Part shown: positions 54,961 through 62,991 of the stretch, piece by piece
Position numbering within the stretch: the stretch's first letter is position 1
How the letters are laid out: each line of letters begins with the position of its first letter
Assembly (NCBI GenBank): GCA_964016885.1
Contig: OZ024742.1
Location: 149,668,001-149,732,000, forward strand
Source: Eledone cirrhosa
Taxonomy: Eukaryota
Direction: 5' to 3'
Length of the DNA stretch: 64,000 nucleotides
Program-made: the position numbers and the translations under genes
Notes under the pieces: generated by a model
Databases searched by the model: none
Seen by the model: only the letters and a program-made list of their open reading frames with translations
Told to the model about the DNA's origin: nothing

Positions 54961-55000
54961 CAAATATTTTACACCAACGACACACACCTTATCATCTTAG
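54961..55000 (+). CDS. Possible 40-nt exon (QIFYTNDTHLIIL-G), phase 0 in and phase 1 out; alternatively the end of a non-coding first exon
   Basis: taacAG preceded by about 70 nt with no AG and pyrimidine-rich; strong TAG|GTAAGC donor at 55001; bridges exon 47441 (phase 0) to exon 58997 (phase 1) in frame. Confidence 0.4.
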
Positions 55001-56246
55001 GTAAGCTGTGATTATGTGTATGTGTGTCTTTGTGTTTATGTAGGTTTAAGTAAAGAAGGAAACACATGTGTGATGTTATGCTTTGTAACACCAATTTAAC
55101 CTGTTTTTCCAAGCTGATTTATATGGTTTAGTTGCTATTACTATAAATTGGCAGAAGAATTAGAGGGATGGGAGACATGCCTTGTGGTATTTTTCCAGCT
55201 CCTTGCATTCTGAGTTCAAATCCAACTGAGGTCAATTATACCGTTCATCCTTCTTGGGTCGATAAATAAAGAAGCAGTCAAGACAATGGCCAGGCAGATT
55301 TATTATAGCATTGGACAAGATACTTCTCAGTATTTGTTGTAGAATTTTGCTTTCTGAATTCAAGTTCTGCCATGGCCTGTTGTCTGGTTTAATATTTGTA
55401 CCTAACTCTTGGTTGAATCAACTCTGTTGTAAATATCTGGGACAGGTCTCTTGTATGAGGCTACCTTCCTCCCTCCAAAATCTCACTGACCCTGAAAATG
55501 GTCTTGGGTATTGCTCATTTCTCCTTACTGAATGATAAAAAGAAATTACTATTGAAAGAGACACTAAATAACCATACAAAAAATTATTTTCAAAAATAAG
55601 AAAAATATATTATTTTTTCCTTTTATTTTTACCTTCCATTTATTTTCTCTTTATGCTGTTATTTTCGTCATTTATTTTTCCATCTTGAAGTTGTACTTAT
55701 TTGGCAACTGACTTGATTTGAACCACTATGTTGAAACTGAAGAATTACATTGTTGAATAGTTATTTTAACCATAAAATAAAATAAAATAAAATAAATACA
55801 CAATAAAAAATACAAACTTTTAAATCCACATTACATTTATTTCCTCTGCGGTGAAAATGTGTCAATGACCAGGTTGCAAAGAGTGTATTGAAAATGTTGA
55901 CACCATAAAAGGAAAAAATGAATAGGGAATATGACAGTTTTTGTGTGATTTTGAATGGTTTAAATGACTCTTGTACATCTTTGCAATCTATCACCAATAA
56001 TATCTTTCACTGTCAATTTTCCATTTACAATGGTTACAAATATAGGACTATAAATATACCAGCATTAAAAATGTCACTAATAATTATAAAACTCACTTCT
56101 TTATCCTTTCTTACTCTCTCTCTATTTATTTATTTCTCTCTCTCTCTCTCTCTCTCTCTCTCTCTCTCTCTCTCTCTCTCTATATATATATATATATATA
56201 TATATATATATATATATATATATATATATATATATATATATATATA

Positions 56247-56347
56247 CAGGGTCTCTCCCAAAAATGTATACACACTTTGATTACCTGTAGAGGCAATATT
56301 TATTAGAAGGCTGTTGAAGTGTGTATATATTTTTGGGGGACACCCTG
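56247..56347. mobile_element. Tc1/mariner-type MITE, 101 bp
   Basis: TIRs of about 31 bp cagggt(c/g)tc(t/c)cccaaaaat(g/a)tatacacactt flanked by TA; follows a (CT)n(TA)n microsatellite at 56115-56246. Confidence 0.85.
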
Positions 56348-58996
56348 TATATATCCCTATTGCTATAACTTTCTCACTTCACCTTGACTTGGAGGTTCTT
56401 CACTTAGTGAATGCATGACAACATTCTTTTAGTAAATTTACTTTCAGCTCTTCTATGCTATCACCTTCATTATCATCAGTTTTTATTATAATCATTATTA
56501 TTATTATTTTTATTATTATTATCATCCTTATTATCATCATCATTATTATTTATTATTAATTTATTATTGTTGTTGCTTTCTTACTTATTATTATGTATTA
56601 TTCTATATTATATTTTTTTATTTATTTCACTTTCATTCAATTTTCAACTCGTTCCTTTATTTCATTTTTCTTCTTGATATCACTATTGCACAATATTTCT
56701 TAATGTAACTGCGGATAAAAAAAAATGCATTGTTTTTAAATCACATTTGGAATGTTCAGTTGTTAAATTGCTATGTTAGCATGAATTTTGCATTCGATGT
56801 TTCTAGATTAATAACTCTTGAAGAAATCAAACTATATGGTTTCTTTATTGATACTTATTTTTCCTGTTATTTAACATGGCACCATTATTTTCATTACATG
56901 ATTAAGCCATTATTATTGTTGTTATTATTTATCAAAAGGGCTATGGTGTGGCAGAAACAGTAGAGAACCAGACTAGATACTTTATGGTATTTAGTTATCT
57001 CCACTTAAACTGAGTTTAGATGCCATGGAGGTCTCTAGTGTTTTTTAACCATTATTCATTTGTCCTTCTGGGTTTGATAAAATAAGGACTAGTCAAGCAT
57101 GGGGTTCTTTTCACTCAATGCTACCATCTGTAATAAATTCACAGCAATATGTCAATGTGAGAACCCACTATCATCATCATAATTATTATTGCAAGATACA
57201 ATAATTTAAAACAGAATAAAGTACTAAATTCCTGTTCCCTAGATATTAGTCTGTGTTTATAGCAAGACACTTAACCTTGCTTGCTTTTGCCTTAATGCCC
57301 ACACAAATTATCCTTATCATCTTATTATGATCATCATTATAATCATTATTATCATTATCATCATTATTATTATCATTATCATCATTATTATCATCATATA
57401 TGAAATGCTTGAGATTATTGTAAAATTAAATAAAAATAGATCATCCAGAACTTTTCATTCTCATCATTATTATTGCTGCTGCTACATGTAGAAAATAGTT
57501 CCAGTTGAGATGAATTGCAGTGATTGCTCTATGTTTAATTAGATGGTATGTAGTTATGTAGAACAGCATTGATTGGTCTCTTGCTTGTTTTCTTCTTCCC
57601 CCCTTTCTTTCCTGTATAACTTTGTAAGCATTGAGGAACATATAAAGCAAGATAAAGTTTACAAAGAAAGCTTTGGAACAAATATCTCAATTTAATCCAG
57701 AACTTAACATTCAAATGGAATTGACATACATCAGTTCCATCAATGAGTCTTTCAGTTGTTTGATCATTGGAACAAACTGAAATTAACCTGCAAATGGCTG
57801 AATGTTCCACAGGCATGTATTCCCTTAATGTAATGCAGACTATCACATACTTGGCCATTTGAATTACAGATGTGCTTAAAATACCACTAGAATATAAATA
57901 TTGTGAAGCAAATTTCTTTAAATTACAATGCAAATTATCGCTCCTGAATTGATGCATAATTTAAATATTACAGTGCAAAAGCATTAAAGAAATAAAAAGG
58001 CTTGTTTTCATGAAAGAAGAATTGCTTTCAGAAATCCTGATGAAGCCAACTTTGCCTTCATTCTTTTGAGATTGATAAAATAAATTATCAATCAAATACT
58101 GGGGCTACTTTAATCACATATACCCAACTCTCACACCCAAGAGCTTATGCTTGTATAAGAAAACAATATTATTTTAAACCACTAGTGCCTTGTTTCATTT
58201 CTCTTTGTAAGTATATTTGTACAGATTTTGGAGGGTTTCTTTTCTTCACTCCACTAAAACTTGTGCATTGTTTTCATTTTTAATTGCCATTTTATGGCCA
58301 TTCTGAGATATTTGAAGAGAAATATGATATTACGACATTTATGTATTCCACAAGAAAAGGGAAATAGCTTCAACTATCATAATGTTCATTCACCATCAAT
58401 TAATTGTTTACAAGGCTTCAAATTTATGCGGAAGGAAGAGGTAAATGGAATTGTTTTATGTTCATATCTTTCTCAAAGATATTAATAATATAAAATTATA
58501 TGAAGCCTACAACAGAATAAAAACTGGATTGCAGGCATGACTTGTTTTCAAGTTATTGGGAGCTTAACTCTACTCTGTTACACAAACACTTTGGGTACAC
58601 AATAATAGTAGAATTGATAAGTAATTCATTTTGAGCTGTTTAATTTTGTATGTGTTAAGTATTATTGTATTTACTGTCTGTGTGTACTCCTCCCTACATA
58701 ACATAACATGTATTTTTTTATGAAATCTTTCTTTCCCTGGAGTGGCTTCTCCTTCCTTTATAACTCATCCAGATTCATCATTTTTAACACTCATCAAATA
58801 CAAGCAATAGCTTTAATTACCAAAGGTAATTTTTGTCTTTGCTGCTGTATTATTTTGTTTACTTCATCTGTTCCATTTTCATATCTTAAGTAATCAATCC
58901 AATCCAATCCAATCCTTGCTTGCTGCTCTAGTTTCACTGGTGCATGAGTATTTGTCTTTTGTTTGTAATAGCCATTTCATGATGCTCGTGCTGCAG

Positions 58997-62474: not shown

Positions 62475-62660
62475 TGGATTGGCAGTATCGGTAGAGAGTC
62501 GGAAGCCATGCTTTCCAGCATAGTTACGTCCCTTTACGATCTGAGTTCAAATCCCGCCGAGGTTGACTTTGCCTTTCATCCTTACGGGGTCGATAAAATA
62601 AAGTACCAGTAATGCACTGGGTAATTGCTGGCCTTGTGCCTAAAGTAGAAACAATTATTA
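62475..62660 (+). mobile_element. Young family A SINE about 210 bp upstream of the TnI core exon
   Basis: Consensus match. Confidence 0.9.
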
Positions 62661-62870
62661 ATGCCTTATTCTTAGGAACATCACGACTTCCCACATCTCC
62701 TCCTTTACAAATTTCAGGTTTCATGACTGTTATAAGAAATCATTGTCTTATTAATGTTACTTGGTGTTTTCTGTTTTGCTATTCTTCATTTCATCTTTGT
62801 ATAAACATTGTCAAACCCTTGGTTTTGTTCATACCATCATATGAAGATCATTGTTGCTGTCTGTTTGTAG

Positions 62871-62991
62871 AAAATTATTATGCAAAAGGCTGCTGAAGAT
62901 CTGAAAAATGAAGCTAAACGGAAAGCAGAAGAAAAAGAGCGCTTCATTAGCGAGAGGGTTGAGCCACTGGTTACCGATGGTCTAAATGAAG
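62871..62991 (+). CDS. TnI: Troponin I core exon (KIIMQKAAEDLKNEAKRKAEEKERFISERVEPLVTDGLNE-G), phase 0-1
   Basis: ctgtttgtAG acceptor and G|GTAGGC donor. MQKAAEDLKNEAK-KAEEKE is the molluscan TnI H1 (TnC-binding) helix motif. Confidence 0.95.

What the first reader, a model, noticed from the sequence alone, without database searches (positions are those of the whole stretch)
54961..62991. Alternative route replacing the TnC-binding H1 helix of troponin I with an acidic divergent segment
Seen: exon 58997-59128 ends in the same phase and at the equivalent position as exon 62871-62991, and their C-terminal halves align (KLILSQRINHLPDNLEELSKG vs ERFISERVEPLVTDGLNEG), but MQKAAEDLKNEAK is replaced by MTKLTDVSQLDLDDTDDET. 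Direct splicing from 47441 gives ERK-stop, whereas inclusion of 54961-55000 restores the frame (...LLK-QIFYTNDTHLIILG-EKMTKL...); otherwise ATG 59005 could start a truncated protein. Joining 59128 to 62871 is out of phase, so the two exons should be mutually exclusive. Known: H1 anchors TnI to TnC. Inference: an isoform that keeps the downstream TnT-binding and inhibitory regions but has altered or no TnC anchoring, i.e. potentially Ca-uncoupled regulation.
Basis: partly seen in the sequence, partly recalled or inferred. Interest (0 to 1): 0.75.

Follow-up and report, generated by a model that had tools for sequence, protein, structure and literature searches.

The report
Octopus troponin I swaps anchor exon
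This octopus-type troponin I gene carries a conserved spare exon, cut out at both ends in a related octopus's likely RNA, that likely replaces the normal exon for most of the helix gripping the calcium sensor troponin C and would give a form less tied to calcium control.

Summary
The gene is an octopod troponin I, the only such locus found in its genome. The alternative exon looks real, but it starts at 58972, not 58997. Exon B (58972-59128, 52 codons) has the same splice phases as exon A (62871-62991), so it needs no helper exon. The proposed micro-exon 54961-55000 is at chance level (3 candidates sense, 3 antisense). In one related-species run (RNA is a guess) a contig matches 58970-59128 with 28 and 27 unmatched letters at its ends, the geometry expected if B and A are alternatives before the same next exon; those letters were not shown. 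A second run keeps the 5' flank unspliced; a third has no cover. B is 45/52 identical in O. bimaculoides (A 36/40). Joining B to A hits a stop. A encodes 13 of the 24 residues matching the troponin I peptide of PDB 3TZ1; B puts a proline and an acidic, predicted coil there. B-A homology is only suggestive. Loss of troponin C anchoring is inferred, untested. Exclusive troponin I exons are known in flies; one gastropod protein varies in this same interval. An earlier scan note covers arthropod troponin I exons, not this one.

The parts
31804..31851 (+). Troponin I exon U1 (16 codons, phase 0/0); one of two candidate upstream partners of exon B
   Evidence: 16/16 identical to O. bimaculoides and O. 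sinensis proteins; joined directly to B in P0001
47346..47441 (+). Exon U2 (32 codons, phase 0/0): basic segment plus the first 11 residues of the troponin C anchor; other candidate upstream partner of B; itself skippable
   Evidence: 31-32/32 identical to octopus proteins; absent from P0006, P0016, P0025; U2+B+next exon is open
54961..55000 (+). Proposed micro-exon; not supported and not needed
   Evidence: Good donor but pyrimidine fraction 0.5 at the acceptor; 3 like candidates sense, 3 antisense; peptide in 0 of 57 stored proteins; excluded as direct partner in X4 by contig geometry. No reads were laid on it.
58899..58913 (+). Three tandem CCAAT pentamers upstream of B (possible internal promoter element, or a simple repeat)
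   Evidence: background 0.14 per 150 nt; function untested
58941..58946 (+). TGCATG (Rbfox-type motif, name recalled) upstream of B, among 5 YGCY motifs; predicted to repress B where Rbfox/Muscleblind are active
   Evidence: no difference listed here in the X13 contig (list cut)
58972..59128 (+). Exon B: alternative to exon A, 157 nt, phase 0/1, 52 codons plus one base; proline start, acidic middle (net -4), basic/hydrophobic tail
   Evidence: X4 contig lies on 58970-59128 with loose ends; 45/52 identical to P0001; single copy in genome; predicted helix 3-12, coil 13-27, helix 28-41 (low confidence)
58997..58997 (+).
   Evidence: X4 and X13 contigs run unbroken across it
59005..59007 (+). In-frame ATG inside B; possible start if B is also used as a first exon
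   Evidence: X13 contig is unspliced upstream
62871..62991 (+). Exon A: canonical exon, 121 nt, phase 0/1; second half of the troponin C anchor, rest of H1 and linker to H2
   Evidence: Pfam Troponin E 4e-8; residues 2-38 align to human cardiac troponin I 52-88; one continuous predicted helix
63016..63021 (+). TGCATG downstream of A, among 5 YGCY motifs; predicted to promote A

Best explanation
Exon 58972-59128 (B) is a conserved exon with the same splice phases as the canonical exon 62871-62991 (A) of this troponin I gene, and it is likely spliced in place of A in a minor isoform that would keep the troponin T-binding and inhibitory regions but is predicted to lose most of its grip on troponin C. 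Shown: the phases, the open frame from either upstream exon (31851 or 47441) into the next exon beyond the window, the stop on joining B to A, conservation in other octopods, and a contig cut at both exon ends. Inferred: the downstream partner is the next troponin exon; double inclusion is removed by nonsense-mediated decay; Rbfox- and Muscleblind-type motifs upstream of B and downstream of A favour A in differentiated muscle, leaving B to a minor cell type or stage; a proline and acidic coil in place of the amphipathic helix weaken binding to the troponin C C-lobe, so calcium would release inhibition poorly or not at all. B probably arose by duplication of A, but the likeness is at the edge of detection.
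For: Phases and frames. X4 record of 214 letters fits 58970-59128 at record places 29-187: 28 loose + 2 shared = 30 before, and 3 shared + 27 loose = 30 behind, as a k=31 bubble predicts if the rival path is A; B and A share exactly 3 terminal bases, B and the intron before the next exon only 2. The flanking intron is conserved enough to align in X13 and in P0001's read-through, so the loose ends are not just diverged intron. X13's contig ends exactly at 59128. P0001 uses the 58972-type acceptor. B is 45/52 identical to O. bimaculoides, between core exons (A 36/40, next exon 31/33) and the long optional exons (97/145, 254/356); the listed differences in X4 and X13 give no stop. TGCATG occurs in 2 of 18 flanks scanned, upstream of B and downstream of A, background 0.08 per 150 nt; YGCY 5 and 5 against 1.1 (noticed after the fact). 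P0005 residues 40-63 match the 24-residue troponin I chain of 3TZ1, 13 of them from exon A. A is predicted as one helix, B as helix-coil-helix. Gastropod P0037 differs from 7 relatives mainly in the exon-A interval (18-21/41 against 53-61/62 downstream; controls 32-38/40).
Against: Only 1 of 3 RNA-guess runs laid shows both ends cut; X13 is unspliced upstream and X8 has no cover; none is on record as RNA and none is from the organism whose runs hold the stretch in full. The loose letters were not printed, so neither partner exon is read directly. B is in 1 of 57 stored proteins: absent from 16 O. sinensis long isoforms seen (2 cluster members not listed) and from the 10 short cephalopod-type proteins. 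In P0001 it reads on through the donor as a last exon. HMMER over 1.84 billion representatives found 0 hits. Listed changes are 3 silent against 6 replacing codons in X4 (10 of 13 differences listed), so selection on the protein is not strong. Homology to A is not significant in 3 of 4 kinds of test. Structure models are single-sequence (pTM 0.39 and 0.47). No binding was tested.
Confidence: 0.55

Rival explanations
1. B is mainly an internal first exon: a promoter near the CCAAT repeats makes a short troponin I starting at ATG 59005, with no N-terminal extension and no troponin C anchor. It can coexist with the cassette use.
For: X13 contig runs unspliced from the donor back past 58920, with 200 further letters; three CCAAT at 58899-58913; the first ten residues after the ATG carry no listed replacement in X4 or X13.
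Against: X4 and P0001 are spliced in at 58972; the 11 codons before the ATG are conserved 9/11; X13's contig extends beyond the CCAAT repeats, has depth 7 and may be pre-mRNA or DNA; short upstream ATGs at 58979 and 58982.
Confidence: 0.15
2. B is a regulatory, non-productive exon: included together with A it triggers decay, or as a last exon it truncates the protein before the troponin core, lowering troponin I in non-muscle cells.
For: B joined to A stops 26 nt into A; P0001 ends in the intron after B; nucleotide conservation is high (13 differences in 159) while replacing changes outnumber silent ones.
Against: The X4 3' geometry (27 loose letters) fits convergence with the A path at the next exon; a join to A would predict 28 because B shares 2 bases with the intron before A and with U1, though 27 also fits a join to A if U2 is the rival (B and U2 share 3). 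The frame is open over 52 codons in three species.
Confidence: 0.15
3. B is a decaying duplicate of A, spliced at noise level and without function.
For: Missing from O. sinensis annotation and from the short cephalopod-type proteins seen; weak likeness to A; no cover in X8.
Against: Open frame and both splice sites kept in three species; more conserved than the long optional exons of the same gene; motif placement.
Confidence: 0.1
4. One reading: 47441 to micro-exon 54961-55000 to acceptor 58997.
For: The frame is open and the micro-exon donor is a perfect consensus.
Against: Chance-level candidate; contigs unbroken across 58997; peptide in 0 of 57 proteins; unnecessary given 58972.
Confidence: 0.05

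Closest known systems
Drosophila wupA (troponin I) mutually exclusive exons 6a-d (PMC8011728, PMC8742874; passages read)
   Same: Single troponin I gene diversified by mutually exclusive exons; splicing linked to muscle RNA-binding proteins; some isoforms act outside muscle.
   Different: From recall the fly cluster lies in the H2/troponin T-binding region and keeps the fold. Here the swapped exon is the H1 exon, 12 codons longer and barely alignable.
Alternative forms in other mollusc troponin I proteins (P0037, unnamed gastropod-like; Patella caerulea P0048 vs P0054)
   Same: P0037 diverges only in the exon-A interval; the Patella pair differs only in the next exon's interval.
   Different: P0037 keeps the hydrophobic H1 pattern and near-normal length; B does not. 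Their genomic exon structure was not checked.
Sea urchin troponin I (PMC5341096; passages read)
   Same: A troponin I that keeps the inhibitory and troponin T-binding regions and is proposed to work without troponin C.
   Different: There the troponin C gene is reported missing and the switch region is lost for the whole gene; here it would be one splice form, and the H1 anchor is the part changed.
Molluscan troponin I - troponin C interface (PDB 3TZ1 chain B; PMC5963113, PMC12040844 passages)
   Same: The 24-residue fragment maps across exons U2 (11 residues) and A (13 residues); molluscan regulation is described as involving the structural troponin C site.
   Different: The B form lacks the 13 exon-A residues, or all 24 if U2 is skipped as in P0001.

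Membership tests
Troponin I gene | Troponin domain and inhibitory region, closer to troponin I than T | tested here: met
   Exon A hits PF00992 and troponin I chains first; downstream exons match octopus and cephalopod-type troponin I; the other Troponin locus is troponin T
Mutually exclusive exon pair | Same entry and exit phase, each in frame with the flanking exons | tested here: met
   Both phase 0/1; U2+A+C, U2+B+C, U1+B+C open
Mutually exclusive exon pair | Joint inclusion is non-productive | tested here: met
   Stop 26 nt into A
Mutually exclusive exon pair | Transcripts with either exon between the same neighbours | tested here: inconclusive
   One contig cut at both ends with fitting geometry; partner letters not shown; related species; RNA is a guess
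Mutually exclusive exon pair | Origin by tandem duplication (detectable homology, similar length) | tested here: inconclusive
   Suffix-anchored 6 of 1000 shuffles; local 505 of 5000; HMM 139 of 2000; global 10-18%; 157 vs 121 nt
Docking-site/selector RNA pairing clusters | Complementary intronic elements around the exons | tested here: not met
   Longest perfect complement 11 nt, within shuffle range 10-14; imperfect or G-U pairing not tested
Troponin C-independent troponin I | Loss of troponin C binding and of calcium sensitivity | not testable with these tools
   No unbroken troponin C sequence was at hand; no complex was folded
Troponin C-independent troponin I | Protein is made | not testable with these tools
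   Only a gene model (P0001) carries the peptide

The most novel reading that the evidence does not exclude
Octopods make, by one exon switch, a troponin I that still binds troponin T and actin but has swapped its troponin C anchor for an acidic loop: a calcium-blind brake or a non-muscle form, letting one gene switch thin-filament calcium control on or off by cell type.
Probability: 0.3. Interest if true: 0.72.

Novelty: new variant of a known kind. Interest (0 to 1): 0.5.

Why it matters
Known alternative exons of invertebrate troponin I tune the protein; this one is predicted to remove the contact through which molluscan troponin C is described to regulate. If the protein is made, it is a natural loss-of-anchor variant for testing how molluscan troponin senses calcium, and a candidate for how octopus muscle or non-muscle cells differ from one gene. 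Nine literature searches listed no paper on cephalopod troponin I splicing; most subscription journals are not in that library, so this is not proof that it is undescribed.

Tried and rejected
X8 was listed as holding a small share but showed no cover of B. X18 covers 58920-59851 without a difference and unspliced; it looks like DNA and may be the assembly's own source. No further A-like or next-exon-like copies among 1010 forward-strand frames between 27 and 90 kb. B: no Pfam Troponin match, no PDB match, 0 hits among 1.84 billion representatives, 1 hit among 5 candidates in the word search. The metagenome scan gave 12 loci, none with B (only L018 and L019 entered the motif count). RNA pairing around the exons: none above chance. 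Ungapped 5' likeness (KAA in A, RAA in B) was noted but global alignments did not reach significance. The Atlas look-up gave no result. Two papers on molluscan troponin (Tanaka 2005, Hooper 2008) were not held. No complex was folded. No supplements were read.

Full report
The locus. The window lies in a 3.0 Gb genome at G000:C3:149668001-149732000. Its exons match octopus proteins that carry the Troponin domain. A genome search with PF00992 gave 3 matches: two in this gene and one on C1 that is troponin T by its PDB hits. The core exons are U1 31804-31851, U2 47346-47441, A 62871-62991 and, beyond the window, C at extended coordinates 69809-69909, then three more.

Checking the observation. 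But the splice-site scan showed a second acceptor 25 nt upstream, at 58972. From there the exon is 157 nt, enters in phase 0 and leaves in phase 1, exactly like A, and is in frame from U1 or U2 into C. The micro-exon is then not needed. A scan of the same intron for exons of that kind found 3 candidates, and 3 on the antisense strand; its peptide is in 0 of 57 stored proteins. No reads were laid on it, so it is unsupported rather than excluded.

Is B spliced? The run search listed 23 runs, 17 guessed to be RNA, from three other organisms, each with a small share. Four were laid on 58920-60300. In X4 one record of 214 letters fits 58970-59128 with 13 differences, leaving 28 letters before and 27 behind. 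These contigs are built from 31-letter words, so a branch overlaps its neighbours by 30 letters (my inference from the tool's description and general knowledge). Upstream, 28 loose plus the 2 bases that U1 or U2 share with the acceptor make 30; the micro-exon shares 3 and would leave 27. Downstream, 27 loose plus the 3 bases that B and A share make 30. This fits B and A as alternatives before one exon. The letters were not printed, so the partners are inferred; U1 and U2 cannot be told apart, and a B-to-A join with U2 as rival path would give the same number. The record is unbroken across 58997. In X13 a record of depth 7 covers 58920-59128, ends exactly at the donor and runs on upstream unspliced. 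X8 has no cover. X18 is unspliced and identical. Independently, the O. bimaculoides model P0001 joins U1 to the 58972-type acceptor but then reads through the donor and ends.

Conservation. B is 45/52 identical to P0001; A is 36/40, C 31/33, and the long optional exons 97/145 and 254/356 against the same species. The listed differences give 3 silent and 6 replacing codons in X4 and 4 and 6 in X13, with no stop; the lists are incomplete (10 of 13 and 12 of 16 differences shown, one of the latter intronic). B was not found outside octopods nor in 16 O. sinensis long isoforms seen.

Relation to A. Local alignment: 505 of 5000 shuffles score as well; suffix-anchored against 32 family segments: 6 of 1000, with the window chosen after looking; profile HMM: 139 of 2000; global: 10-18% of shuffles. 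Same phases and position make duplication the simplest origin, but sequence does not prove it.

What B replaces. Residues 2-38 of A align to human cardiac troponin I 52-88. The 24-residue troponin I chain of 3TZ1 matches P0005 40-63, of which 11 residues come from U2 and 13 from A; that this entry is the scallop troponin C C-lobe complex, and that cardiac residues about 39-60 anchor on the C-lobe, is recalled. A review passage says molluscan troponin may regulate through the structural troponin C site and the inhibitory region (PMC5963113), another that scallop troponin C has one calcium-binding domain (PMC12040844). Single-sequence AlphaFold gives one helix for A and helix 3-12, coil 13-27, helix 28-41 for B; both are low-information. 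B begins with proline, and its first 32 residues are net -4 against +2 for A's first 20. I infer weakened troponin C anchoring with the H2 and inhibitory regions intact.

How the choice may be made. Joining B to A stops 26 nt into A with several introns downstream, so decay could enforce exclusion. TGCATG occurs in 2 of 18 flanks scanned, upstream of B and downstream of A; YGCY counts are 5 and 5 there against 1.1 expected, though U2's upstream flank has 4. By the recalled positional rule for Rbfox and Muscleblind this would repress B and promote A in muscle. It was noticed after the fact, and TGCATG occurs 14 times between 47000 and 70500. No pairing elements were found, a test prompted by an earlier scan note on arthropod troponin I.

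Comparison with what is known. Drosophila troponin I has mutually exclusive exons 6a-d and isoforms with non-muscle roles (PMC8011728, passages), and Rbfox1 affects its flight-muscle isoform (PMC8742874, passages; PMC13322953, passages). Tarantula isoforms differ in one internal block (PMC2674065, passages). Sea urchin troponin I is proposed to work without troponin C (PMC5341096, passages). Among molluscs, P0037 diverges only in the exon-A interval and two Patella proteins only in the exon-C interval. Alternative core exons are therefore a known kind. What is new is an H1 exon so altered that the anchor pattern is gone.

Verdict. A probably real, octopod-conserved alternative exon at 58972-59128; route corrected; function inferred. 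New variant of a known kind, interest 0.5.

Noticed in passing
window 47346-47441: Exon U2, with the basic segment and first half of the troponin C anchor, is skipped in P0006, P0025 and O. sinensis isoform X7 (P0016): a second way of cutting the anchor, also outside octopods.
   Followed up: partly
protein P0037 (JGI, gastropod-like): Divergence confined to the exon-A interval (18-21/41 against 53-61/62 downstream), suggesting an alternative H1 exon in gastropods.
   Followed up: partly
proteins P0047/P0048 vs P0054/P0055 (Patella caerulea): Pairs differing only in the interval of the exon after A, suggesting mutually exclusive exons there.
   Followed up: no
window 22127-27581: Long, acidic and asparagine-rich optional exons give 900-1000 residue troponin I forms in octopus annotation, misnamed in databases (myb-like, histone methyltransferase); 67-71% identical to O. 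bimaculoides.
   Followed up: partly
window 49047-49910, minus strand: 288-codon open frame with a CPRC...H...C motif, resembling the end of a LINE retroelement ORF (resemblance recalled).
   Followed up: no
window 59550-59910: High-copy interspersed repeat pieces just downstream of B, present in all four runs laid.
   Followed up: no
window 27600-31800: The short cephalopod isoform starts Met-Ala before exon U1, but no matching two-codon start exon was found in this interval.
   Followed up: partly
protein P0029: A mollusc-like troponin I labelled Enterococcus faecium in NCBI, probably contamination.
   Followed up: no
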